A stretch of DNA of 64,000 nucleotides from NCBI GenBank assembly GCA_963851445.1, contig CAWKPH010000002.1:102183-166182 (forward strand). The letters run 5' to 3'. The notes under the pieces are model-generated. The model saw only the letters and a program-made list of their open reading frames with translations. It searched no databases and was not told the origin of the DNA. Both the position numbers and the translations under genes were made by a program. Positions 2,120-53,887 of this stretch are shown here, piece by piece; position 1 is the stretch's first letter; each line of letters begins with the position of its first letter. The DNA comes from an uncultured bacterium (GTDB taxonomy: Bacteria; Patescibacteriota; Minisyncoccia; Phycocordibacterales; Phycocordibacteraceae).

Positions 2120-3403
2120 ATGCCTCGAACAATTGATGACATACTTCCGCCTTCTCGGCGCCGTGCGGCGAATGATAGTAAGGCGACCGATATCGATACC
2201 CCAGACACTGATACTTCAGACGATAACCGCGACAGATTCTCGGGCCACCGCACTCCACCCCGTGTGCGAATCAACACTGGACGTAGTTTTCCCTATGGTA
2301 CCGCAATAATTGCACTCCTTGTGATCGCAATATCAGCTGGAGCGCTTTATGCATTTGCTGGTGCAAAAGTGGAAATTCAACCCAAATCGCAATCTGTTCA
2401 AGTGAGCGGAAGCTTTAGCGCTACACAAGGAACGGGTAGCTTGCCTTTTACTTTGATAACCGTAAATAAAACTGCAAGTGCTTTTGTTCCTGCCGAGAGT
2501 ACAGAAACTGTAAACGATTCTGCACAGGGGACTATAACAGTGTCGAACACTCTTTCCACACCAGAAACGTTCGTCGCTAACACACGCTTTGAGACACCTG
2601 CGGGTCTTGTGTTTCGAGTTCATGCCCCAATAACCATACCTGCAGCTACCGCAAGTGGACCGGGAACAGTAAGCGCAATGGTCTACGCCGATCAACCAGG
2701 TCAGGAATACAATGTGGGACCTACCACGTTCACTGTTCCCGGCCTTATGAACTATGCAAGCGAATATAGTGCTATAACCGCGAGGTCGACGAATGCAATG
2801 ATAGGGGGATTTACGGGAACTCGAGCTTCGGTTGGTCAGTCAACCGACAGCAGCCAACAGTCAACTCTTCAATCGACACTTGCAACTGAACTACAGTCTG
2901 ATATCACATCTCAAATTCCTTCAGGGGACGTTTTGGTTCCTGGTAGTACTTTTACTTCTTATACTTCAGTACCTGATACTGCAACGACTACAACTACCGT
3001 CGAGGTGAGTGAGCAAGGAACGCTCACTGCGGTGGTGTTCCCGAACTCCGCGCTTGCTCAAGCGATTGCATATAAACAAGTTGGTACCTATGAGGGTGAG
3101 CCAGTTACTACTAACAGTGTCAATAGCCTCAATCTTTCGTCTGCAAGTACGACAGTCCCAACCTCAGGAACAGAAACCTTCAACTTTAACCTTTCGGGCT
3201 CGGCAACGATTGTCTGGACAGTTGATCCTTCCAAAATCGCAGGTGCTATCGCAGGAAAAACGCGCGATTCAGCACAATCAATTCTTGCGGGATTTCCTGA
3301 AGTTGACCAAGCGACCCTTTATTTACGACCTTTTTGGGCAAACACGTTTCCTGCAGACCCCTCTCGTATTCAAGTAGTTATTGAAAAGCCTGCTAATCAA
3401 TAA
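2120..3403 (+). CDS. Hypothetical membrane-anchored Thr/Ser-rich protein
   Basis: 427-aa ORF with a single N-terminal TM helix (IIALLVIAISAGALYAF) followed by a Thr/Ser-rich extracellular region. Confidence 0.4.
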   Translation: MPRTIDDILPPSRRRAANDSKATDIDTPDTDTSDDNRDRFSGHRTPPRVRINTGRSFPYGTAIIALLVIAISAGALYAFAGAKVEIQPKSQSVQVSGSFSATQGTGSLPFTLITVNKTASAFVPAESTETVNDSAQGTITVSNTLSTPETFVANTRFETPAGLVFRVHAPITIPAATASGPGTVSAMVYADQPGQEYNVGPTTFTVPGLMNYASEYSAITARSTNAMIGGFTGTRASVGQSTDSSQQSTLQSTLATELQSDITSQIPSGDVLVPGSTFTSYTSVPDTATTTTTVEVSEQGTLTAVVFPNSALAQAIAYKQVGTYEGEPVTTNSVNSLNLSSASTTVPTSGTETFNFNLSGSATIVWTVDPSKIAGAIAGKTRDSAQSILAGFPEVDQATLYLRPFWANTFPADPSRIQVVIEKPANQ

Positions 3404-3463
3404 CCACTACACACCAATGCATTGACGATATACGGCCTAGTTGCTAGAATGGCAAGGCTACAC

Positions 3464-3682
3464 ATGGCGGACACTACAGCTGAAGAGAACCCAACGGGCA
3501 CGGTAGAGGAGGTGCTCCCTAATTCTCTGTTTCGCGTCCGCATGGAATCAGGTGAGCTACTTCTGGCATATCTTGCTGGAAAAATGCGCTTGCACCGAAT
3601 CCGCGTGTTAGTGGGCGATCAAGTTGAACTCGTTACCGATCCATATGGAGGCCGAGCTCGAATTGTGCGACGTCTTACCTAA
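3464..3682 (+). CDS. infA: Translation initiation factor IF-1
   Basis: GTVEEVLPNSLFRVRMESGELLLAYLAGKMRLHRIRVLVGDQVELVTDPYGGRARIVRR matches the IF-1 S1-like fold consensus. Start chosen at an internal Met of ORF 3422..3682. Confidence 0.85.
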   Translation: MADTTAEENPTGTVEEVLPNSLFRVRMESGELLLAYLAGKMRLHRIRVLVGDQVELVTDPYGGRARIVRRLT

Positions 3683-3709
3683 TCTTATTCGCCTTCGTTA
3701 ATTTTATTC

Positions 3710-3826
3710 ATGAAAGTACGTGCATCGCTTAAGGTACAACAACCAGGAGATATTCTCGTTCGCCGTAACGGACGATTGTATCGAATCAATAAGCGTAATC
3801 CGCGCCGCAAGGCTCGGCAGGGTTAA
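3710..3826 (+). CDS. rpmJ: Ribosomal protein L36, zinc-independent (C-minus) form
   Basis: 38-aa [41 protein letters not shown], absent from the ORF track because it is under 60 aa. Canonical MKVRAS start and KxRQG end. No Cys or His residues. Confidence 0.8.
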
Positions 3827-3849
3827 ATCATCTCAATTTTCATAAATTT

Positions 3850-4230
3850 ATGCGTATAGCTGGAGTCACTCTTCCTGATAGTAAACAACTTCTGTATTCG
3901 TTACCGTTAATTAACGGTATTGGAATTTCGCGTGCGCGAGATATTTTGAAACAGGTTAAACTTTCCCCATCGACTAAGGGCACTGAGATTACTCCTGAAC
4001 AGGAGCAAGCGATCCGCACGCTTGCTGAGGGCTATACAATCGAAGGGGAACTTCGTCGCGAGGTCGCACAAAATATTAAGCGATTAAAGGATATTCGTTC
4101 AGCTCGCGGTATCCGTCACGAGCGCGGTCTTCCTGTTCGAAATCAGCGTACAAAAACAAATTCTCGAACACGTCGAGGTAATCAGCGAAAGACTATGGGA
4201 TCAGGACGCCGCACGCTCGAGAAGACATAA
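3850..4230 (+). CDS. rpsM: Ribosomal protein S13
   Basis: MRIAGVTLP...INGIG N-terminus and basic C-terminus typical of S13. Position is after infA-rpmJ. Confidence 0.9.
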   Translation: MRIAGVTLPDSKQLLYSLPLINGIGISRARDILKQVKLSPSTKGTEITPEQEQAIRTLAEGYTIEGELRREVAQNIKRLKDIRSARGIRHERGLPVRNQRTKTNSRTRRGNQRKTMGSGRRTLEKT

Positions 4231-4267
4231 AACAAGGCAATAACATCTCTCACCTCTCTAAACCATT

Positions 4268-4702
4268 ATGGGAAAAAAACGTATTATTAAGAAATCAGGA
4301 AGAAGTCTCGACCAGGGACGGCGAGAACGCGCCCTATCAAGAGTTGCTAAAAAGCGAATTGAACGCGGTATTCTTCATGTTGAAGCAACTTTTAATAATA
4401 CAAAGGCTGTTCTTACCGATGAAGCAGGTAACGCAATCATGTCATCCTCTTCAGGTGCACTTGGTTTCTCGGGTGCACGCAAATCAACTCCGTATGCGGC
4501 CGCAAAAGTTGGCGAACTTATCGGGGAAAAGGCAGCTGCCATTGGCCTTAAGGAAGCAAGCGTGGTCATACGCGGCGTTGGGGCCGGTCGCGAATCAGCA
4601 CTTCGTGCGTTTGCGGGTAAGGGTATCCAAATTCGTAGCATTAAGGATGCTACTCCTGTCCCACATAATGGCCCTCGACCGCCTAAGCCTCGTCGCGTAT
4701 AA
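4268..4702 (+). CDS. rpsK: Ribosomal protein S11
   Basis: GILHVEATFNNTKAVLTDEAGNAI...STPYAA motif of S11. Lies in the conserved S13-S11-S4 order. Confidence 0.9.
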   Translation: MGKKRIIKKSGRSLDQGRRERALSRVAKKRIERGILHVEATFNNTKAVLTDEAGNAIMSSSSGALGFSGARKSTPYAAAKVGELIGEKAAAIGLKEASVVIRGVGAGRESALRAFAGKGIQIRSIKDATPVPHNGPRPPKPRRV

Positions 4703-4723
4703 TCCTTCTTCATCATTTTATTT

Positions 4724-5335
4724 ATGAAAACAGGACCAAAATATAAAATTGCGAAGCGTCTGGGACCCTCTGTGTTTGAAAAAACCCAAACACAGAAATT
4801 TGCTATCGCTCAGGAACGTGCGGCTCGCACCAAAAAATCTCGTGGTCGTGGTGCGACCGAATATGGCAAGCAACTTCTCGAGAAGCAAAAGGTTCGTATG
4901 ACCTATGGTATTTCAGAGCGCCAATTTCGAAACCTTATTGAGGAAGCGATGGAAACTCATGATGCGAATCCTTCTGAAATTTTACATCGACTTCTAGAAC
5001 TGCGACTCGATAATGTTATTGCACGACTCGGCCTTGCGCCGACTCGACGCGCAGCTCGGCAAATGGTCTCCCATGGCCATGTGACGGTGAATGGCACTAA
5101 AACAACTATTCCGTCACGCAGGATGCATGTCGGGGACAAAATTGCCGTGCGTGAGGGCAGTAAAAATCGTGTGCTGTTTGAAAACCTCAGTGCTCGGCTT
5201 GAGGAGCGAACGCTTGGCAAGTGGCTCTCGTTTGATGCAAAGGCAATGAGCGGGAACATTGAATCGCTTCCAAGTCATGAGAGCACTGATACTGCAGGTG
5301 ATTTGGTTTCAGTTATTTCCTTCTATTCTCGATAG
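4724..5335 (+). CDS. rpsD: Ribosomal protein S4
   Basis: KYKIAKRLG N-terminus plus an S4 RNA-binding domain. Conserved cluster position. Confidence 0.9.
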   Translation: MKTGPKYKIAKRLGPSVFEKTQTQKFAIAQERAARTKKSRGRGATEYGKQLLEKQKVRMTYGISERQFRNLIEEAMETHDANPSEILHRLLELRLDNVIARLGLAPTRRAARQMVSHGHVTVNGTKTTIPSRRMHVGDKIAVREGSKNRVLFENLSARLEERTLGKWLSFDAKAMSGNIESLPSHESTDTAGDLVSVISFYSR

Positions 5336-7680: not shown

Positions 7681-7700
7681 GTTTCTGTTACAATCTGCTA

Positions 7701-8594
7701 ATGAAAGACTTTGAGGTGCTCTTATTCTATAAGTACGTCACTATTGAAAATCCACAGGAGCTTGCGACTTGGGTTCGCAAACTATGCGAGCAGTATGCGC
7801 TTACAGGACGCGTTATCGTCGCTGAAGAGGGAATTAATGCCATTCTCGAGGGAAAAACTGCTAATACAAAGGCATTCCTAAGGAAATTTTTATCGGATGC
7901 ACGATTAAGCGACATAAAGATCAAGCGTAGTAAAGGTACTGGGACAGCATTTCCTAAGCTCTCCGTAAAAGTACGCAAAGAAATTGTGGGCACCCATTTT
8001 CCACAAGAGCAAATTGATCCACGCATAAAAACTGCGCCGTATATCAAAGCAAATGAACTTCGAAAAATGTACGAAAGTGATGATGATTTCGTAGTTGTAG
8101 ATATGCGTAATACCTATGAATATGCGTCAGGCCACTTTAAACATTCCGTTAATCCGGGTCTCGAGAACTCTCGTGATCTTCCGAAGATGCTTCCGAAACT
8201 CGAACCACTTAAACATAGGAAGGTTATCACTGTGTGTACAGGCGGTATTCGTTGCGAAAAGATGTCAGCACTTCTCCTAAGCAATGGATTTGAAGATGTG
8301 CATCAGCTTGAGGGTGGTATCCATGGCTATATGAAAAAATTTCCTGGAAAGGATTTTCTCGGAACGCTCTATACGTTCGATGGCCGCCTCACAGTCGATT
8401 TCGGCGGCAATCGCGAGGTCATCGGCAAATGCTACCTTTGCGATAATCCTACCGAAAGATACGTAAACTGTGCTAATCCAGCTTGCCATCTTCATTTTCT
8501 CGTCTGCGACTCCTGCGTAACTCCTGACGGAAATGCGTATTGTTCGAACGACTGTAAAAGGAGTATAGCGATTGCGATTACAATCGAAATTTGA
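7701..8594 (+). CDS. trhO: Rhodanese-domain tRNA U34 hydroxylase (UPF0176/YceA family)
   Basis: LLFYKY N-terminus, a rhodanese domain with active-site CTGGIRCEK, and a C-terminal Cys cluster. Confidence 0.7.
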   Translation: MKDFEVLLFYKYVTIENPQELATWVRKLCEQYALTGRVIVAEEGINAILEGKTANTKAFLRKFLSDARLSDIKIKRSKGTGTAFPKLSVKVRKEIVGTHFPQEQIDPRIKTAPYIKANELRKMYESDDDFVVVDMRNTYEYASGHFKHSVNPGLENSRDLPKMLPKLEPLKHRKVITVCTGGIRCEKMSALLLSNGFEDVHQLEGGIHGYMKKFPGKDFLGTLYTFDGRLTVDFGGNREVIGKCYLCDNPTERYVNCANPACHLHFLVCDSCVTPDGNAYCSNDCKRSIAIAITIEI

Positions 8595-8643
8595 ATATCA
8601 GGAACATTTTGACCCCTGCAATTATTTCAGGCATACTTTATTC

Positions 8644-9195
8644 ATGGATGAGGACGATGTAACCGTAGAGTCGGATACCGAGAATGGGTTTGTGGGAGAC
8701 GGGGATGAAACCATTGCTTCGGAAGATCGCGCTGAAACTAAACTTGCCAAACTTCGCAAGGAACTTGAGCAACTGCGAAAAGAAAAACAAGAGAATTTAG
8801 ACGGGTGGCAGCGATCGAAGGCGGATTATGTGAACGCGCTTCGACGTTTTGAGCAAGAGAAGAAATTAGCCATTGAACTAGGCAAAATAAAGACAGCTGA
8901 AGCCTTTATACCCGCTATGGATTCGCTAGAACGAGCCAAGGAGAATGGTGAATTGCCAGAAGGATTTATTGGAATTTTGAAGCAACTTGAAAGCGCCGCT
9001 AAATCTTTAGGACTTGTTCAATTTGGAACAAAAGGCGATCCATTCGATCCCATGCTTCACGAAGCACTGGGCAATGATGCTACGGAAAATGACGATGAGG
9101 ATAACACCGTTAGTGTTGTGCTTGAGCAGGGATGGAAAATGAACGATCAGATCATCAGGCCTGCCAAAGTACGTGTCGCTCACCTGCAGGTTTGA
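8644..9195 (+). CDS. grpE: Nucleotide exchange factor GrpE
   Basis: A coiled-coil region (LAKLRKELEQLRKE...) followed by the GrpE beta domain (VSVVLEQGWKMNDQIIRPAKV). Lies immediately upstream of dnaK. Start set at the Met after the trhO stop. Confidence 0.8.
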   Translation: MDEDDVTVESDTENGFVGDGDETIASEDRAETKLAKLRKELEQLRKEKQENLDGWQRSKADYVNALRRFEQEKKLAIELGKIKTAEAFIPAMDSLERAKENGELPEGFIGILKQLESAAKSLGLVQFGTKGDPFDPMLHEALGNDATENDDEDNTVSVVLEQGWKMNDQIIRPAKVRVAHLQV

Positions 9196-9302
9196 ACTCA
9201 GAAATAAAGAGGTGTAAAATGAGATCATCGGATCCAAGGTTTGATTGAATTTAAAATGGGTTGCAAGAGGGTGTATTTATAAAGATTTAACTATATTTGA
9301 CT

Positions 9303-11231
9303 ATGGCAAAGATTCTTGGCATTGACCTCGGTACCACCAACTCCGCCATGGCTATCATGGAGGGCGGGGAACCACGAGTTCTTGAAAATGCAGAGGGTGC
9401 ACGAACGACTCCTTCTGTTGTTGCAATTGCGAAAAATGGCGAACGCATGGTTGGCACACTTGCGCGTCGTCAATCAGTGACAAACCCCACAAATACTATT
9501 TACGGCATTAAGCGCTTTATGGGCCATCGTTTTAGCGACCCTGCAGTTCAACGGGATAAGGAAGTAGTTCCATATGAGGTAAAAACCGGTTCTGACGGAG
9601 GAGTACTCATACATCTAGGCGATAAGGATTATCGTCCGGAGGAAATTTCCGCGATGATCCTCTCAAAATTAAAGGCGGATGCGGAGGCAAAACTTGGAGA
9701 AAAAATTACTGAAGCCGTTATTACAGTACCGGCATACTTTGATGATGCACAACGGAGTGCAACGAAAGCAGCGGGACAGGTAGCAGGACTCGACGTTAAA
9801 CGCATTATCAACGAACCAACTGCAGCAGCACTTGCGTATGGATTTAATAAGAAAAAAGACGAAAAAATAGCGGTATTTGATTTTGGGGGGGGCACATTTG
9901 ATGTATCGGTGCTTGAGGTGGGAGACGACGTAATCGAGGTAAAGTCTACTGATGGCGATGCTCACATGGGTGGTCGCGATATTGATCAAAAAATTGTTCG
10001 CTACCTAGCCGATGAGTTCAAGAAACAGAGCGGGATAGACGTCACGAAGGATCCACTCGCACTCCAGCGTCTTGATGAGGCGGCAGAAAAAGCGAAGCTT
10101 GAGCTTTCAACCTCGATGGAAACTGAGGTAAATATTCCATTCATCACCATGGGCGCTGATAGCAACCCACAACACCTTCTCTTGAAACTCTCACGCGCAA
10201 CACTTGAATCTCTTTCTGACGAGTTTATTACTCGCTCTCTTGAGATCACAAAAAGAGCCCTTGAGGCAGCTGGAATAAAACCATCTGATATCAACGAACT
10301 CATCATGGTGGGTGGCCAAACCCGCATGCCAAAGATTCAGGAAGAGGTAAAGAAACTCTTCGGAAAGGAACCAAATCTCTCGGTGAACCCAGATGAGGTC
10401 GTAGCAGTTGGAGCAGCCATACAGGCGGGCATTCTCCAGGGGGACGTAAAGGACATATTACTTGTAGATGTTATTCCACTCTCACTTTCTATTGAAACAG
10501 CAGGAGGAGTTGCTACAAAACTCGTTGACCGCAATACAGCCATTCCAACATCACGCTCACAAACGTTCTCAACATATGCCGATAACCAAACATCGGTAGA
10601 GATTCACGTCACGCAGGGTGAACGAGCTATGGCTGCTGACAATAAGTCTCTTGGCAAGTTTATGCTCGACGGCATACCACCAGCACCCCGCGGCCTTCCG
10701 CAAGTTGAAGTTACCTTCGATGTGGATACGAACGGAATTCTGACCGTGAAGGCGAAAGAAAAAACCACAGGTAAGGAGCAATCGATTCGTATTGAGGGCT
10801 CGACTGGACTCTCCTCTGCTGACATCGAGAAGATGAAACAAGATGCAGAGGTTCATGCGGGAGAGGACGCTAAGCGCAAGGAAACGGCAGAAGTGAAAAA
10901 TCTTGCTGAGCAGATGGTATATACCGCCGAGAAGGCAGTTCGGGAAAACGGCGACAAGGTTGATGAAGATACTGTAAAGGATGTAAACGAGAAGATCGCG
11001 GCACTAAAACAGGCTCGTGAGGGGGAGGATGTACAAGCGATTAAATCAACTAGCGAAGCCCTTTCACAATCAATGTCGAAGATCGGGGAAATAATGATGC
11101 AACAGCAGTCACAAGCATCCCCTGAGTCTACACATACTAGCGACGAAAACACCGCTAGCGGGTCATCGCAGGAAGCTGCGCCAACTTCAGACGCCGATTT
11201 TACTGAAAAACCTACAGAAGAGAGTCCCTAG
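9303..11231 (+). CDS. dnaK: Chaperone DnaK (Hsp70)
   Basis: [18 protein letters not shown] and a complete Hsp70 architecture. 644-aa ORF. Confidence 0.95.
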
Positions 11232-11309
11232 AGACTGTTTCAGAGGCTCCAGGCCTCTCCTTATAGGACGACTTGCTAAGTTAAATCATACATGGTAAAA
11301 AGCTATCGT

Positions 11310-11834
11310 ATGATAAAAACAGCAATAATCCGTTTCGCGTCCTTGTGTGGGGGCTTGGCTCTTGGCGGTACCTTACTTGTAACTCCGGCATTTGCCTCAT
11401 ATCAGTATCAGACCTCGAATTTCTGCTATGGTTCGGGCTGTATGCAGAACCAAGGGTATTATGGTGAGCAGCAGCCAAATTACGACAATTCTAACTATGG
11501 CTACAACGGGTATCAGGAGTACCCATCGTACGGCCAACCATACCAGCTTCCGTATGCCTATAGTTATCAAAATCCAAATGGCTATGGTCAGCAGAACTAC
11601 AACAATTATCCGCAAAACTATCAGTACGGATATCAGCCTTCACAGCAGTATCAATCGTGGTATAGCCCGTGGAATCCGGCATATGAGAATTACACTCCAC
11701 ATGGCTATTCCTATCAGATACCGCCTACGTACTCGTACCAATATCATTACTCCTACTCTTACTCGTATTCCTATTCGTATCCACGATCGAATACGTGGTA
11801 TAGCTATCCAATGAGTTCAGGAGACCGTTGGTAA
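11310..11834 (+). CDS. Secreted Tyr/Gln/Asn-rich low-complexity protein
   Basis: Signal peptide MIKTAIIRFASLCGGLALGGTLLVTPAFA. The mature part is about one-third Tyr (YSYSYSYSYSY, GYQ/NYQ motifs) and is encoded with varied codons. It is inserted between dnaK and dnaJ. Confidence 0.5.
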   Translation: MIKTAIIRFASLCGGLALGGTLLVTPAFASYQYQTSNFCYGSGCMQNQGYYGEQQPNYDNSNYGYNGYQEYPSYGQPYQLPYAYSYQNPNGYGQQNYNNYPQNYQYGYQPSQQYQSWYSPWNPAYENYTPHGYSYQIPPTYSYQYHYSYSYSYSYSYPRSNTWYSYPMSSGDRW

Positions 11835-11862
11835 AAACTCCAAGGCTTGCCAGTTTAAATAG

Positions 11863-11898
11863 AAACCCCGGTCACTAAAGGCCGGGGTTTCTTGTTTT
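11863..11898 (+). terminator. Rho-independent terminator
   Basis: AAACCCCGG-TCACTAAAG-GCCGGGGTTT followed by CTTGTTTT. Confidence 0.6.
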
Positions 11899-11945
11899 AC
11901 AACCTTTTACTACTGACATCGTTTGCGCTATACTAGCCCTTATCT

Positions 11946-13034
11946 ATGGCAAAGAACTACTATGAAATCCTTGGGGTTGATAAAAAAGCAACAAAAGATG
12001 ACGTAAAGAAAGCGTTCCGGAAGCTTGCACAGAAATATCATCCTGATAAAGGGGGCAGTGAGGATAAATTCAAGGAGATAACGGAAGCGTACAGCATCCT
12101 CTCAGACGATAAAAAACGTCGTGAATATGATTCCTATGGACAGACATTCGCCGGTAGCGGGCAGGCTGGAGCCGGGTTTCAAGGTACGGGTGGTTTCGAC
12201 TTCTCGAATTTTCAAGGTTTCAATAACGGTGGCGTTGAGTTTGATATATCTGACCTTTTTGGTGGCTTTGGTGATATTTTCAGTCAGGGACAAGGACGTG
12301 GGAGAATGAAGCGTGGACGCGATATTTCGATGGATATCGAGATATCATTCAAAGATTCAATACTAGGAGTAAAGCGTTCGGTTCTCATCACTAAGGTAGG
12401 AAAATGCGATACCTGTGATGGATCAGGTGCAAAACCAGGCACTGAGATGGAGACCTGTAAAACCTGTAATGGTGCCGGACGCATACACGAAACCCGTGAC
12501 TCGATTCTTGGGGCCTTCTCCAGTGTGCGCTCATGTCCAACCTGTGAAGGCCTGGGGAAAGTTCCGAAGGAGAAATGTGCAACGTGTAGTGGACGAGGTG
12601 TAATTCGTAAAGAAGAGGAAATCAAGATTGGTATTCCTCGTGGCATTGATGATGGTGAGATGATTCGTATGCCCGGTCAGGGAGAGGCGGTTAAGGGCGG
12701 GCTTGCCGGGGATCTTTATATAAAGGTGCACGTGAAGCCCCATGCCTTGTTCCGTAAAGAGGGCGCAAATCTTATCATGAATCTCCCAATCAAACTTACG
12801 GATGCTCTTCTTGGCACAACGGTTTCGGTCACAACTATCGATGACAAAACACTTGAGGTGAAAGTACCGCAGATGACACATACTGAGGAGACACTACGTA
12901 TACGCGGAAAAGGAGTTGAGTATGCTGAGGGTGGTCACGGAGACCTTCTTATTCGCATCACCGCCAGTCTCCCACGAAAACTTTCAAGTAAAGCAAAGAA
13001 AGCAATTGAGGATCTTAAGAGCGAAGGATTATAG
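11946..13034 (+). CDS. dnaJ: Chaperone DnaJ
   Basis: J-domain (YYEILGV...HPDK), a G/F-rich region and four CxxCxGxG zinc-finger repeats. Confidence 0.9.
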
Positions 13035-21788: not shown

Positions 21789-21879
21789 TGCCTTACTTTG
21801 ATGTTTGCTTCCTCGTTTAGGTGTTTAATTGCCATAGCCCCTCAATTATTGTTCAGCTAAATTCTGTTATACTCGGGAT

Positions 21880-23158: not shown

Positions 23159-23244
23159 GCGTCGGTGGTAGAGTGGTCAATTACAACAGGCTGTAAACCT
23201 GTCGGCTTCGGCCTACGGAGGTTCGAATCCTTCCCGGCGCACCA
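23159..23244 (+). tRNA. tRNA-Tyr (anticodon GTA), CCA encoded
   Basis: Cloverleaf with 7-bp acceptor (one G-U pair), anticodon loop CTGTAAA, long variable arm CGGCTTCGGCCTACG, T-loop GGTTCGAATCC, 3' ACCA. Lies immediately downstream of tyrS. Confidence 0.85.
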
Positions 23245-33329: not shown

Positions 33330-34817
33330 ATGACCATACGTACACGATTCGCCCCAAGCCCAACCGGATTTCTCCATGTAGGTAGCGCACGCACGGCCCT
33401 CTATGCATGGCTCTATGCACGTAAATATGGGGGGCAGTTCATTCTACGCATTGAGGACACGGACAAGGAGAGGGAAGTTGAAGGATCGATCGGCCACATC
33501 ATGGAATGCCTACGTTGGCTTGGCCTTATGTGGGATGAGGGGCCAAATATCGATGGCCCCTATGCGCCCTATGTACAGTCCGCACGACTTGAACTCTACA
33601 AGGAATATGCACGTAAGCTTCTTGCAGCGGGTTTTGCATATCCCGATCCCTATACATCCGAAGAAATTGAAGTGCTTCGCCAGCAAGCGATAGGTGAGAA
33701 ACGAGCATTCTTGTATCGCGAGCATCGCCCTCACATGGCTACAAAATGGGACGGTACACAACCGCTTCGTTTTCGCGTTCCCGCGCTAAAGCGTTACGAA
33801 TGGGTTGATCTTGTTCGGGGACCTCTCTCCGCAGGTGAAGAGGCACTCGACGATTTCATACTTATGAAGGGTGACGGATTCCCGACCTATAACTTTTGTC
33901 ATGTGGTCGACGATATAGAAATGAAAGTAACCCATGTTATGCGAGGCGAGGAATTTATTTCTTCCACGCCAAAATTTCTTTCGCTGTATGAAGCTCTCAA
34001 AACCGCGCCACCACAATTTGCTACGTTACCGCCCATACTTGGGGAGACTGGCACAAAGAAATTGAGTAAACGAGATGGTGCTAAAGACATTCTCGATTAC
34101 CGGGCAGAGGGGTATTTGCCTGAAGCGCTTGTGAATTTTCTTGCGCTTCTTGGGTGGAATCCTGGTACTGAACAAGAGGTCTTTAGCATGGAGGCTCTTA
34201 TCGCACATTTCGACCTCGCTCGCGTGCAACGATCCGGTGCAATGTTCGACGACAACAAGTTGCTTTTCATAAACCAACAATGGATGCGTGGGCTCTCCGA
34301 TGAAGAATTCCTTATGCAAGGTCAACTGGTTGCGCCTGAAGCAGTACCCAAATCGCACGTACAAGAAAATGCTACCGAAAATCAAATACGGCTCCTGAAA
34401 TCAGTACCGCTTCTTAAGGAACGGGCCCACACATTTTCTGAGGCACAGGATATGCTTACTGGCGAGCTATCGTGCTTATTTACAGACCCCAACCCAGAGA
34501 AGACTCCTTTGCTTGCCAAGGAGCCGAAAAACAACCCTCCAGGTCTCACAAAAACAAGCCTCACAGAGCTTTTAGAGCATATTCAAGCATTGTCTCAAAG
34601 CACCTTCGAATCTGGCCCAGAGGCCCTAAAAACAGCTCTTATGGGCTATGCGGATGCCAATCCTAAAGAACAGGGAGGTAGGGGGGCAATTCTCTGGCCG
34701 CTTCGCTACGCGCTCTCGGGAAAGGAGCATTCTCCAGATCCGTTTTCTCTTATCTATATATTAGGCAAAGATGAAAGCATATTTCGCATCCAAACGGCAC
34801 TTGCTATACTGGATTAA
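33330..34817 (+). CDS. gltX: Glutamyl-tRNA synthetase
   Basis: RFAPSPTGFLHVGSAR (HIGH motif) and KLSKR. Confidence 0.9.
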   Translation: MTIRTRFAPSPTGFLHVGSARTALYAWLYARKYGGQFILRIEDTDKEREVEGSIGHIMECLRWLGLMWDEGPNIDGPYAPYVQSARLELYKEYARKLLAAGFAYPDPYTSEEIEVLRQQAIGEKRAFLYREHRPHMATKWDGTQPLRFRVPALKRYEWVDLVRGPLSAGEEALDDFILMKGDGFPTYNFCHVVDDIEMKVTHVMRGEEFISSTPKFLSLYEALKTAPPQFATLPPILGETGTKKLSKRDGAKDILDYRAEGYLPEALVNFLALLGWNPGTEQEVFSMEALIAHFDLARVQRSGAMFDDNKLLFINQQWMRGLSDEEFLMQGQLVAPEAVPKSHVQENATENQIRLLKSVPLLKERAHTFSEAQDMLTGELSCLFTDPNPEKTPLLAKEPKNNPPGLTKTSLTELLEHIQALSQSTFESGPEALKTALMGYADANPKEQGGRGAILWPLRYALSGKEHSPDPFSLIYILGKDESIFRIQTALAILD

Positions 34818-52606: not shown

Positions 52607-53887
52607 TCACTCGACATCTTTGGCGATATCGGTGCGGTTCTCCTTGTTATTGTAGTAGATTTGATCAGCGGCGGCATATGCGGTCTTTCGCGCGTCGGCA
52701 ATGGCTGGACCCATACCAACAACACTGAAGACACGGCCGCCGGTGGTCTTGGTAAGGAACGAAAGCGGTTTAGTACCAGCATGCAGGATGGTGGCATTCG
52801 GAAACTCGGTTGTGTCACCCGATACCCACATACCCGTCTCGTATTTGCCAGGATATCCTCTGGAAGCCAGGACAACACATACGGCTGCCTCAGGACTGAC
52901 TTCAAGAGGAGGAAGTTCGGCGAGACCTCCAACCTCAAGCGTCCCCAACATGTACGGAAGGATGTCGGAAGTCGTGCGCGCGAGAATCACCTGGGTTTCA
53001 GGGTCGCCGAAGCGCACATTGAACTCCATCAATTTCGGACCCTTTGCGGTCAGCATCAAGCCTGCGTAGAGCAAGCCTCGAAAGGGAAGGCTCTCCTGAT
53101 GTTTGAATGCAAGAAGCACACGAAGGATAATCTCGTTCTTGATACGCTCAAGGAGTGCGTCATCGACATCGGACAACGGTGAGTATGAACCCATGCCGCC
53201 CGTGTTTGGACCTTCGTCCCCGTCATACGCCCGTTTGTAGTCACGCGCTGGGGGAAGAAGAATCGCATTCTCACCATCACAGAATGCCATGACAGAGCAC
53301 TCGAGCCCCTCAAGACGTTCTTCGACGACAATGACATCACCAGCCTTTCCATGCACGCCGTTCACAAGCATGTCTTCAGCCGCATCGATAGCTTGTGCGT
53401 GGGACTTTGCAACTACAACCCCTTTCCCCGCACAAAGACCATCAGCCTTTATTACGGGGGGAGTATCGAAAGAATGAATGGCCCGAAGTGCGTCCTCCAT
53501 TGAACTAGCGACATGAAACGGTGCTGTTGGAATCCAGTAAGCTTTGCACAGACGCTTCGTGAAGGCCTTGCTACCTTCAAGAACTGCCATTCTTGCGGTC
53601 GGTCCGAACGCCGCAATGCCATGTTCGGCAAGACGATCGACGAGACCATTCACTAGCGGGACTTCAGGACCAATGACGACCAGGTCGACGCTCTCGTCGA
53701 GCGCGAGCTGTACGATGCCGTCCATGTCGGTAACTGCCACGTCGTGGATCTGTCCGCTACGGAAGCCACCATTGCCAGGACTGCAGAGGACTCTACTGAC
53801 TTTCGGACTCGTCTCCAGCTTTTTTGCGAGCGCATGTTCACGCGCTCCGCTGCCGATGATGAGGATCGTCATGTCTTCAGTACGCAT
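52607..53887 (-). CDS. purD: Phosphoribosylamine--glycine ligase
   Basis: ILIIGSGAREHALA N-terminus, ATP-grasp core, full-length PurD collinearity. Confidence 0.9.
   Translation of the reverse strand: MRTEDMTILIIGSGAREHALAKKLETSPKVSRVLCSPGNGGFRSGQIHDVAVTDMDGIVQLALDESVDLVVIGPEVPLVNGLVDRLAEHGIAAFGPTARMAVLEGSKAFTKRLCKAYWIPTAPFHVASSMEDALRAIHSFDTPPVIKADGLCAGKGVVVAKSHAQAIDAAEDMLVNGVHGKAGDVIVVEERLEGLECSVMAFCDGENAILLPPARDYKRAYDGDEGPNTGGMGSYSPLSDVDDALLERIKNEIILRVLLAFKHQESLPFRGLLYAGLMLTAKGPKLMEFNVRFGDPETQVILARTTSDILPYMLGTLEVGGLAELPPLEVSPEAAVCVVLASRGYPGKYETGMWVSGDTTEFPNATILHAGTKPLSFLTKTTGGRVFSVVGMGPAIADARKTAYAAADQIYYNNKENRTDIAKDVE

What the first reader, a model, noticed from the sequence alone, without database searches (positions are those of the whole stretch)
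11292..11900. Signal-peptide-bearing protein that is about one-third tyrosine, inserted between dnaK and dnaJ
The mature ~150-aa product is dominated by Y, Q, N, S and P (GYQ, NYQ, YSY runs, YSYSYSYSYSY) and has two Cys. It is encoded with mixed codons, so it is not a slippage artefact. It has its own terminator.

It splits the otherwise universal grpE-dnaK-dnaJ arrangement. Secreted Tyr-rich low-complexity proteins of this kind could form cross-linked (dityrosine) surface matrices or adhesive fibres. Heat-shock co-regulation is implied by the position.
Basis: seen in the sequence. Interest (0 to 1): 0.55.

Follow-up and report, generated by a model that had tools for sequence, protein, structure and literature searches.

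The report
Secreted tyrosine-rich disordered protein family
The gene between dnaK and dnaJ is real: it belongs to a small, undescribed family of exported, tyrosine-rich, disordered proteins found in one clade of ultra-small Patescibacteria, always at this position, and probably forming a sticky or self-assembling surface material.

Summary
ORF 11292-11834 (likely true start 11310, 174 aa) has a Sec-type signal peptide ending AFA|S, one Cys-x4-Cys loop and a 130-residue tail. The mature protein is 26% Tyr, about a quarter rather than a third, and 85% Y/Q/N/S/G/P/T. A strong terminator follows the gene.

It is not an orphan. Profile searches recover about 38 relatives, 33 clusters at 50% identity among 1.84 billion representatives. 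None has a Pfam, NCBIfam, PHROG or PDB match.

- All 15 members with genomic context lie directly after dnaK, and dnaJ follows in the 14 whose contig continues.
- The 14 genomes placed on a DnaJ tree form one clade. Sister clades lack the gene.
- dN/dS is 0.12-0.15.
- Mature Cys counts are always even, and the C-terminal residue is Tyr in 31 of 38.
- Tyr alternates with S/Q/N/G at period 2.
- AlphaFold gives no fold.

Relatives carry their own TTGACA-N17-TATAxx promoter 6-8 nt before the ATG, implying a leaderless mRNA. dnaJ has its own promoter, and no CIRCE element is present. Co-regulation with dnaK is therefore possible only by read-through.

Most likely this is an exported, disulfide-looped, self-associating envelope or adhesive protein. 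Its function is inferred, not shown.

The parts
9297..11231 (+). dnaK (Hsp70), upstream neighbour
   Evidence: 644-aa ORF. It is 73-85% identical to DnaK of Paceibacteria relatives. The corresponding gene in relatives hits Pfam HSP70.
11232..11291 (+). dnaK-to-gene spacer without a convincing terminator
   Evidence: MFE -13.0 kcal/mol, z = -0.23 against shuffles, and no T-run. Read-through from dnaK is not excluded.
11273..11301 (+). Promoter-like site TTGCTA-N17-TAAAAA, 8 nt before ATG 11310. It is weaker than in relatives.
   Evidence: Read from the sequence. Seven relatives have TTGACA-N17-TATAxx/TAGTAT/TAATAC followed by 6-8 nt and the ATG. The consensus scanner did not report the window site, because the last base of the -10 hexamer is not T.
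11310..11834 (+). Coding sequence of the Tyr-rich secreted protein, 174 aa from the likely start. The longest ORF starts at 11292 (180 aa).
   Evidence: ORF list. P0001 is a 174-aa gene call. The N-terminus MIKTAIIRF aligns with MKTAIIRL/F of P0016 and P0021. The family HMM hits only this frame.
11310..11396 (+). Sec-type signal peptide, residues 1-29, with predicted cleavage AFA|S
   Evidence: K3 and R8, then hydrophobic residues 9-24 (11-residue Kyte-Doolittle means up to 1.7), then TPAFA. The [AT]P-A-[FHL]-A motif is conserved in all 38 members. No dedicated predictor was available.
11424..11441 (+). Cys-x4-Cys loop (C39..C44), a shortened version of the family's C-x-[GS]-R-[YF]-D-P-x-C module
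   Evidence: Both Cys columns are invariant in the 22-sequence alignment. Mature Cys counts are even in 38 of 38 members.
11442..11831 (+). Tyr/Gln/Asn/Ser/Pro/Gly low-complexity tail, including YSYSYSYSYSY at 11748-11780
   Evidence: Composition. Tyr is enriched at i+2, i+4, i+6 and i+8 and depleted at i+1. AlphaFold pLDDT is 37-50 with no secondary structure.
11861..11898 (+). Intrinsic terminator
   Evidence: 13-bp stem with 8 GC pairs, then TGTTTT. Free energy -26.3 kcal/mol, z = -5.47. Equivalent hairpins follow the gene in 10 of 12 loci examined.
11906..11934 (+). Promoter-like site of dnaJ (TTTACT-17-TATACT)
   Evidence: Consensus scan. A -10-like TATAGT/TATAAT lies after the terminator in relatives.
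11946..13034 (+). dnaJ (Hsp40), downstream neighbour
   Evidence: 362-aa ORF. It is up to 80% identical to DnaJ of the GTDB representatives and 86% identical to DnaJ of L082.

Best explanation
This is a real, vertically inherited gene. It is specific to one clade of Kaiserbacteria-like Paceibacteria (Patescibacteria/CPR).

Inferred pathway of the product:
- The precursor is exported through Sec and cut by signal peptidase I after AFA.
- The mature ~145-aa product carries a small disulfide-closed loop near its N-terminus.
- The rest is an almost uncharged, intrinsically disordered tail. In it Tyr alternates with Ser, Gln, Asn or Gly.
- I propose that this tail self-associates outside the cell, through a Tyr-faced amphipathic beta-strand, cross-beta or condensate-type assembly.
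- That would make it an envelope-matrix or adhesive protein. The conserved N-terminal loop would act as an anchoring or targeting module.

Transcription: the gene appears to be transcribed from its own sigma-70-type promoter as a leaderless mRNA and ends at its own terminator. Read-through from dnaK is possible.

Its position between dnaK and dnaJ is best explained by a single insertion in the clade ancestor that has been kept ever since. A demonstrated functional coupling to the chaperones is not needed to explain it.

Shown here: gene reality, family, synteny, purifying selection, sequence periodicity and transcription signals.

Inferred, not shown: export, the disulfide, and self-assembly or adhesion.
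For: Family:
- 22 hits in the 5.8-billion-protein search.
- 34 clusters at 50% identity among 1.84 billion representatives, one of them spurious.
- Members share one architecture.

Position:
- All 15 members with genomic context lie directly after dnaK, and dnaJ follows in the 14 whose contig continues.
- An HMM search of all ORFs of all loci and the window finds members nowhere else.

Phylogeny: the 14 gene-bearing genomes placed on a DnaJ NJ tree form one clade, and sister clades lack the gene.

Selection: dN/dS is 0.15 and 0.12 in the two closest pairs, including in the low-complexity tail (0.14-0.21). For dnaK it is 0.024.

Export features: a conserved n-region, h-region and AxA signal peptide, an even number of mature Cys in 38 of 38 members, and very few charged residues.

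Assembly-prone features:
- Tyr at i+2 is 0.39 against 0.28 expected (+9.6 sd).
- Tyr at i+1 is 0.08 (-17 sd).
- The residue X in YXY is S, Q, N or G.
- The C-terminal residue is Tyr in 31 of 38 members (P = 1e-11).

Disorder: mean pLDDT is 46.5 and 46.1 with a 22-sequence alignment. Only the signal-peptide helix and one short helix after the Cys loop are predicted.

Transcription:
- Promoter alignment.
- Terminators.
- A -10 box 5-10 nt before the start codon in 21 of 56 window ORFs, against 3.6 expected.
Against: - There is no expression, localisation or biochemical evidence of any kind.
- No signal-peptide predictor could be run.
- The window copy has a degenerate Cys loop (C-x4-C in place of C-x-GRYDPx-C). 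Its promoter match is weaker than in relatives.
- It scores lowest among true members against the family profile (56 bits).
- AlphaFold's lack of structure fits amyloid-like assembly. It fits equally well a protein that stays disordered or binds a partner.
- dS in the dN/dS pairs is near saturation (1.4-2.8), and alignments of low-complexity sequence are uncertain.
Confidence: 0.45

Rival explanations
1. Dedicated chaperone client. The gene sits between hsp70 and hsp40 because the aggregation-prone precursor needs DnaK/DnaJ to stay export-competent. E. coli CsgA and CsgB behave this way. The arrangement would ensure co-production by read-through from dnaK.
For: [quoted passage not shown]
- The window signal peptide starts M-I-K-TAII-R-F, a basic-hydrophobic-basic stretch. 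That is the kind of motif the paper describes as a DnaK site.
- There is no terminator between dnaK and the gene.
- The position is invariant in all 15 members with genomic context.
Against: - The invariant position is fully explained by one ancestral insertion plus vertical descent.
- The gene has its own strong promoter in relatives, and dnaJ has a separate one.
- The slot accepts unrelated genes in sister lineages and even within the clade, such as AHSA1 and a 127-aa ORF.
- A basic-hydrophobic n/h-region is a feature of any signal peptide.
Confidence: 0.2
2. Covalently cross-linked surface matrix. Tyr-x-Tyr motifs would be oxidised to dityrosine or isodityrosine, as in plant extensins, resilin or spore coats, giving an insoluble protective sheath.
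For: There are 16 YxY motifs in the window protein. YSY, YQY, YNY and YGY are the four commonest tripeptides of the family tails. The protein is predicted to be extracellular.
Against: - No tyrosinase, laccase, peroxidase or other oxidase domain was found among the ORFs of the 64-kb window that were scanned against Pfam.
- None appears in the flanks of related loci.
- Many Patescibacteria live in anoxic groundwater, which would not favour oxidative cross-linking. This point rests on general knowledge and was not tested.
- The rest of the genome was not available.
Confidence: 0.1
3. Glycan-directed protein. The Tyr face would stack on sugars of peptidoglycan, an S-layer glycan or a host cell wall. 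Alternatively, the many Tyr/Ser/Thr residues would be O-glycosylation sites of an envelope glycoprotein.
For: The protein has an aromatic-plus-polar composition and almost no charge. The window encodes peptidoglycan synthesis genes MraY, FtsW and MurG, so a wall is present. Aromatic platforms in carbohydrate-binding modules and Tyr-linked S-layer glycans are established knowledge. They were not tested here.
Against: There is no similarity to any carbohydrate-binding or cell-wall-binding family. There is no adjacent glycosyltransferase. The predicted disorder is unlike folded CBMs.
Confidence: 0.12
4. Secreted antimicrobial or signalling peptide precursor. The N-terminal YG...C-x-C loop would correspond to that of sec-dependent class IIa bacteriocins.
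For: There is a superficial resemblance: a signal peptide, then Y-G and a short disulfide loop near the mature N-terminus.
Against: There is no YGNGV motif and no Pfam bacteriocin hit even at E <= 10. The mature length of 100-165 aa and the 25% Tyr tail are unlike class II bacteriocins. No immunity gene is adjacent. The ABC transporter two genes downstream has no C39 peptidase domain.
Confidence: 0.04
5. Spurious ORF in a compositionally odd spacer.
For: Low-complexity DNA opens long ORFs in other frames too, for example 11392..11814, 140 aa.
Against: - The frame, signal peptide, Cys pair and C-terminal Tyr are conserved across about 38 diverged sequences despite many indels.
- dN/dS is 0.12-0.15.
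- A promoter and a terminator bracket exactly this ORF.
Confidence: 0.02

Closest known systems
Curli subunit CsgA (E. coli functional amyloid)
   Same: Both are small (~13-16 kDa mature) and Sec-exported. Both have a short N-terminal module followed by a polar Q/N/G/S/Y-rich aggregation-prone region. Both end in Tyr (for CsgA this is from my own knowledge). There is also a known dependence on DnaK before export (PMC6123696).
   Different: There is no sequence similarity and no Curlin repeat, and the S-X5-Q-X-G-X2-N-X5-Q motif is absent. There are no csg partner genes nearby. The host is thought to have no outer membrane or CsgG channel. Tyr content is far higher here.
Prion-like and FUS-type low-complexity domains (Sup35 N, FUS LC)
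   Same: The composition is dominated by Y, Q, N, S and G with almost no charge or aliphatic residues. There are 7 [G/S]Y[G/S] motifs. The protein is predicted to be disordered. Tyr acts as the 'sticker' in such domains (established knowledge).
   Different: This protein is exported, whereas those are cytoplasmic or nuclear. Q+N reaches 28 per 80 residues, just under the classical threshold of 30, which only 2 of 38 members meet. Tyr at 26% is about twice that of those domains. A strict period-2 Tyr pattern is present.
Mussel foot and other Tyr-rich underwater adhesive proteins
   Same: They are secreted, small, Tyr-rich (>10 mol%) low-complexity proteins used for sticking to surfaces (PMC4220933).
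   Different: Those proteins are also Lys-rich and depend on conversion of Tyr to DOPA. The window protein has 0 Lys and 2 Arg, and no tyrosinase is in view.
Plant extensins and Bacillus CotC/CotU spore-coat proteins (Tyr cross-linked walls)
   Same: Both have abundant Y-x-Y motifs in an extracytoplasmic structural protein. For extensins and CotC/CotU this is from my own knowledge.
   Different: There are no Ser-Pro4 repeats. CotC and CotU lack signal peptides and are Lys/Asp-rich. There is no homology.

Membership tests
Sec / signal peptidase I substrates | Basic n-region, a hydrophobic h-region of 10-15 residues, and small residues at -3 and -1 (AxA) | tested here: met
   K3 and R8, hydrophobic residues 9-24, then A-F-A|S. 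[AT]P-A-x-A is conserved in 38 of 38 members. This was judged by inspection only, without SignalP.
Bacterial lipoproteins | Lipobox [LVI][ASTVI][GAS]C at the end of the signal peptide | tested here: not met
   The only signal-peptide Cys is in A-S-L-C, with Leu at -1. It is not conserved in homologues.
Curli CsgA/CsgB | Five imperfect repeats S-X5-Q-X-G-X2-N-X5-Q (Pfam Curlin_rpt) | tested here: not met
   Regex search found 0 matches. There was no Pfam hit at E <= 10.
Curli CsgA/CsgB | Encoded with csgBAC/csgDEFG secretion partners | tested here: not met
   The neighbours are grpE, dnaK, dnaJ, a small membrane protein and an ABC transporter.
Q/N-rich prion-like domain (Michelitsch-Weissman criterion) | At least 30 Q+N in 80 consecutive residues | tested here: not met
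   The window protein reaches 28 of 80. Only P0006 and P0016 reach 30.
Functional amyloid (any) | Cross-beta fibrils, with dye binding and a 4.7 A reflection | not testable with these tools
   Only indirect evidence is available: the period-2 Tyr pattern and no monomer fold.
Mussel-foot-type adhesives | High Tyr together with high Lys, and Tyr converted to DOPA | tested here: not met
   Tyr is 26% but Lys is 0 and Arg is 2. The criteria are as summarised in PMC4220933. DOPA conversion cannot be tested here.
Extensin-like Tyr cross-linked wall proteins | Ser-(Hyp/Pro)3-5 repeats with YxY cross-link motifs | tested here: not met
   There are 16 YxY motifs but 0 SPPP.
Class IIa (pediocin-like) bacteriocins | YGNGV box with a C-x4-C disulfide, and a mature peptide under 60 aa | tested here: not met
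   There is no YGNG. C-x4-C is present, but the mature protein is 145 aa. There was no Pfam hit.
HrcA/CIRCE heat-shock operon member | CIRCE inverted repeat TTAGCACTC-N9-GAGTGCTAA upstream of the operon | tested here: not met
   0 matches in the 64-kb window with up to 3 mismatches.
The new family itself (Tyr-rich protein of the dnaK-dnaJ slot) | Signal peptide ending AxA, then an invariant Cys pair, then a tail of at least 14% Tyr ending in an aromatic residue, encoded between dnaK and dnaJ | tested here: met
   The window protein scores 56 bits, E = 4.5e-10, against the family profile in the 1.84-billion library. It shows all of these features. Its Cys loop is 2-3 residues shorter than in the other members.

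The most novel reading that the evidence does not exclude
In one clade of ultra-small, probably host-attached bacteria, a conserved exported protein with prion-like composition is the main self-assembling adhesive or sheath material. It would be a genuine built-in client of the Hsp70/Hsp40 pair that flanks its gene. In that case this would be a new type of bacterial functional amyloid or condensate, with a dedicated chaperone-client gene module.
Probability: 0.1. Interest if true: 0.75.

Novelty: new variant of a known kind. Interest (0 to 1): 0.45.

Why it matters
Almost nothing is known about how Patescibacteria (CPR) build their surface or attach to hosts, and most of their small secreted proteins are unannotated. 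Here there is a clade-defining exported protein. It has been retained in every sampled member and is under purifying selection. Its sequence grammar, alternating Tyr with small polar residues, is the one that drives amyloid and condensate formation elsewhere.

It is a concrete and cheap candidate for expression, fibril or condensate assays, and localisation. The mature window protein has no Lys and only two Arg, so standard tryptic metaproteomics would have missed it.

The analysis also shows that a gene lying between dnaK and dnaJ need not be a heat-shock gene. In this lineage each gene carries its own leaderless promoter.

Tried and rejected
- Single-sequence homology search found only the protein itself. 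The family appeared only after syntenic ORFs from relatives were aligned.
- The exact-sequence contig look-up of P0001 returned nothing.
- The Pfam, NCBIfam and PHROG scans and the PDB profile search gave no meaningful hit. The only hits were weak signal-peptide-driven matches to DUF4179 and similar.
With a tighter alignment it matched 36 stretches, but none passed tblastn confirmation. I suspect low-complexity masking.
- Two AlphaFold runs gave pLDDT of about 46. I did not run fold search, because matches from such models are meaningless.
- The CIRCE search was negative.
- I looked for decayed remnants of the gene in the dnaK-dnaJ spacers of ten sister genomes and found none.
- P0031 (1229 aa) in the representative search is a repetitive artefact, not a member.
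- The lipoprotein, curli, class IIa bacteriocin, mussel-adhesive, extensin and spurious-ORF readings were each tested and rejected (see membership tests).
- I considered a composition comparison with the Sup35 and FUS sequences. I did not compute it because I could only recall those sequences from memory.

Full report
**1. The observation**

The window carries rpoA-rplQ-rplM-rpsI, a rhodanese-family gene, grpE (8572-9195), dnaK (9297-11231), an ORF at 11292-11834 and dnaJ (11946-13034), all on the + strand. The ORF translates to 180 aa.

- After a signal-peptide-like N-terminus ending TPAFA|S, the remaining 145 residues are Y 38, S 20, Q 20, N 15, P 14 and G 12, with two Cys.
- Tyr is therefore 26% of the mature protein and 21.7% of the precursor. 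That is a quarter, not a third.
- Background Tyr in the long ORFs of the window is 2.9%, so the excess is far beyond chance (P = 2e-25). No other ORF of the window comes close to this density.
- Codon use is mixed (TAT 26, TAC 13). Tandem Repeats Finder reports only a weak 6-nt array at 11748-11773. The bias is therefore at the protein level and is not a DNA repeat.
- A 13-bp GC-rich hairpin followed by TGTTTT lies at 11861-11898. Its free energy is -26.3 kcal/mol, z = -5.5.

**2. The organism**

DnaJ is at most 80% identical to the GTDB species representatives, all of them Patescibacteria labelled Kaiserbacteria, Paceibacteria or Parcubacteria. It is 86% identical to DnaJ of L082. G+C is 47.7%.

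**3. It is a family, not an orphan**

The protein alone finds only itself among 5.8 billion sequences. It has no Pfam, NCBIfam or PHROG match.

When I listed the ORFs lying between dnaK and dnaJ in related genomes, four of them (L001, L002, L003, L010) had a signal-peptide-bearing Tyr-rich ORF of 138-184 aa at the same place. A profile built from these recovered 22 proteins. A profile of those found 34 clusters at 50% identity among 1.84 billion representatives, one of them a repetitive artefact. All members are unnamed or 'hypothetical'. The family profile has no relative of solved structure.

**4. Shared anatomy**

- A signal peptide ending [AT]-P-A-[FHL]-A.
- A conserved N-terminal module, Y-G-A-x-P-x-Y-N...(V)-C-x-[GS]-R-[YF]-D-P-x-C-[IL]-x-K-E-x-N-Y. 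Its two Cys are invariant.
- A tail of 70-165 residues with a mean of 25.6% Tyr (range 14-32%), 23% Q+N and only 1-5 Lys+Arg.
- A YQYQYSY-like block near the end.
- A C-terminal residue that is Tyr in 31 of 38 members, Trp in 2 and Phe in 1 (P = 1e-11 for Tyr).
- A second Cys pair near the C-terminus in 12 members. The number of mature Cys is even in all 38, as expected for disulfides in an exported protein.

The window protein is a divergent member. Its loop is C-x4-C (FCYGSGCMQ) and it scores 56 bits against the family profile.

**5. The tail has a grammar**

Given a Tyr at position i, another Tyr follows at i+2 with frequency 0.39, against 0.28 in shuffles (+9.6 sd). Frequencies at i+4, i+6 and i+8 are 0.355-0.365. 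At i+1 the frequency is only 0.08 (-17 sd). The residue between two Tyr is S, Q, N or G.

This is the periodicity of a beta-strand with one aromatic face and one small-polar face. AlphaFold with the 22-sequence alignment gives mean pLDDT of 46.5 (window protein) and 46.1 (canonical member P0010). It predicts only the signal-peptide helix and one short helix after the Cys loop, with tail pLDDT of 34-43. The monomer is thus predicted to be disordered.

**6. It is a gene under selection**

- The reading frame, signal peptide, Cys pair and C-terminal Tyr survive many indels.
- An HMM search of every ORF of at least 50 codons in all fetched loci and the window hits only this frame in this slot.
- Nei-Gojobori dN/dS is 0.15 (L081 vs L086) and 0.12 (L084 vs L085), and 0.14-0.21 in the tail alone. 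For dnaK in the same pairs it is 0.024.
- dS is close to saturation, so these values are rough. Even so, pN (0.19-0.27) is far below pS (0.64-0.73).
- The protein evolves roughly ten times faster than the chaperones, as surface proteins often do.

**7. Position and history**

- All 15 members for which flanking DNA could be read lie directly after dnaK, and dnaJ follows in the 14 whose contig continues. In L090 the upstream gene is cut at the contig end and carries no annotation.
- In some, an extra gene shares the slot: an AHSA1/SRPBCC gene in L081 and L086, and a 127-aa ORF in L086.
- On a neighbour-joining tree of DnaJ, the 14 gene-bearing genomes placed on it form a single clade. The sister clades lack the gene.
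- Those sister clades carry instead other small secreted or membrane proteins, a 4.3-kb insert, or nothing in a 70-230-nt spacer.
- The simplest history is one insertion in the clade ancestor followed by retention in every sampled descendant. This explains the invariant position without any functional link to the chaperones. It also indicates that the gene is useful.

**8. Transcription**

- Seven relatives have TTGACA, 17 nt, then TATAxx, TAGTAT or TAATAC, often with an upstream TG, and then only 6-8 nt before the ATG. That is a near-consensus sigma-70-type promoter producing a leaderless mRNA.
- The window has a weaker version: TTGCTA (11273-11278), 17 nt, TAAAAA (11296-11301), 8 nt, then ATG 11310. 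Together with the homologues' N-termini, this makes 11310 the likely start.
- Leaderless architecture is general in this genome. A TAnnnT box lies 5-10 nt before the start in 21 of 56 ORFs, against 3.6 expected, while Shine-Dalgarno-like motifs are rare.
- A strong hairpin follows the gene in 10 of 12 loci, and a -10-like box for dnaJ follows the hairpin.
- The dnaK-to-gene spacer of the window has no significant structure (z = -0.23), so read-through from dnaK is possible.
- No CIRCE operator occurs in the window.

The gene is therefore its own transcription unit. It may also be reached from dnaK, and it is insulated from dnaJ. Heat-shock co-regulation is not implied by the position.

**9. 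Mechanism**

I commit to the following, with steps marked.

- Export by Sec and cleavage after AFA. This is inferred from conserved signal-peptide features.
- A disulfide-closed N-terminal loop. This is inferred from the invariant, always-even Cys counts.
- A disordered, uncharged tail that self-associates outside the cell into a beta-rich, amyloid-like or condensate-like material, or sticks to surfaces. This is inferred from the composition and the period-2 pattern, by analogy with curli, prion-like and FUS-type domains and Tyr-rich adhesives.
- The conserved N-terminal module would anchor or target the protein, as the N-terminal segment of mature CsgA does. This is speculation.

The chaperone-client idea is a live rival. 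[quoted passage not shown] However, nothing here requires that explanation.

Oxidative Tyr cross-linking cannot be excluded. No oxidase was found among the window ORFs that were scanned against Pfam or in the related flanks.

**10. Comparison with known systems**

The protein works most like a curli-type or prion-like self-assembling protein, but it is a member of none of them.

- The curli repeat motif, the Q/N threshold (28 of 80 against the 30 required), the Lys content of mussel adhesives, the Ser-Pro repeats of extensins, the YGNGV box of class IIa bacteriocins and the lipobox were each tested and not met.
- Full-text searches found no paper linking tyrosine-rich proteins with Patescibacteria or Kaiserbacteria, and no relevant paper linking prion-like proteins with CPR.

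**11. Verdict**

The specific function is untested, and the heat-shock inference is weak.

This is an undescribed, clade-restricted family of a broadly familiar kind. It is interesting mainly as a tractable candidate surface or adhesive protein in a group whose envelope biology is largely unknown.

Noticed in passing
L012:1669-6001: In this relative a 4.3-kb insert separates dnaK from dnaJ. It includes a ThiF/E1-like ORF (4222-4893) and an ORF with a JAB/MPN-like HSHxxxxxxxSxxD motif (3214-4209). This suggests a ubiquitin-like conjugation cassette in the same slot.
   Followed up: no
L008:5390-5917 and L011:5407-5937: Sister-clade genomes carry an unrelated 175-aa signal-peptide protein rich in Cys and Arg between dnaK and dnaJ. 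Other relatives (L005, L013, L016) have small membrane proteins there. The slot is a recurrent landing site for small envelope proteins.
   Followed up: partly
L081:5503-5928 and L086:4485-4910: An AHSA1/SRPBCC-domain gene (Aha1-like fold, 141 aa) lies between the Tyr-rich gene and dnaJ in two members of the clade.
   Followed up: no
window, all intergenic regions (for example 845-859, 7686-7700, 21865-21879, 34802-34816): A TAnnnT -10-like box lies 5-10 nt upstream of the start codon in 21 of 56 ORFs, against 3.6 expected. Shine-Dalgarno-like motifs are rare. Leaderless mRNAs seem to be the norm in this genome.
   Followed up: partly
window:8572-8650: The longest grpE ORF starts at a TTG at 8572, but a promoter-like site (TTGACC-17-CATACT, 8609-8637) lies inside it. 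The real start is probably the downstream Met of MDEDD....
   Followed up: no
window:16402-21788: A 505-aa protein with no Pfam match is followed by a ThiF-family protein, a nitroreductase-like protein and a 7TM-sensor histidine kinase. The first three could form a peptide-modification (azoline-type) cassette.
   Followed up: no
window:21880-24250: Tyrosyl-tRNA synthetase, a tRNA gene (23159-23241) and a second class Ib synthetase (probably TrpRS) lie together, 10 kb downstream of the Tyr-rich gene.
   Followed up: no
window:41116-42645: A 509-aa ORF matches only fragments of FGAR amidotransferase domains (N, linker and the last 45 residues of GATase_5). It may be a degraded or rearranged purL. 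A complete purD lies at 52607-53887.
   Followed up: no
window:38437-39645: A C39-like peptidase domain fused to TPR repeats, preceded by a basic and hydrophobic N-terminus.
   Followed up: no
window:13088-15280 and the same position in L082, L085-L090: dnaJ is followed throughout the clade by a small protein with no Pfam match (124-185 aa; membrane-like in the window) and an ABC exporter with ABC_membrane and ABC_tran domains. Whether this pair relates to the Tyr-rich protein is unknown.
   Followed up: no
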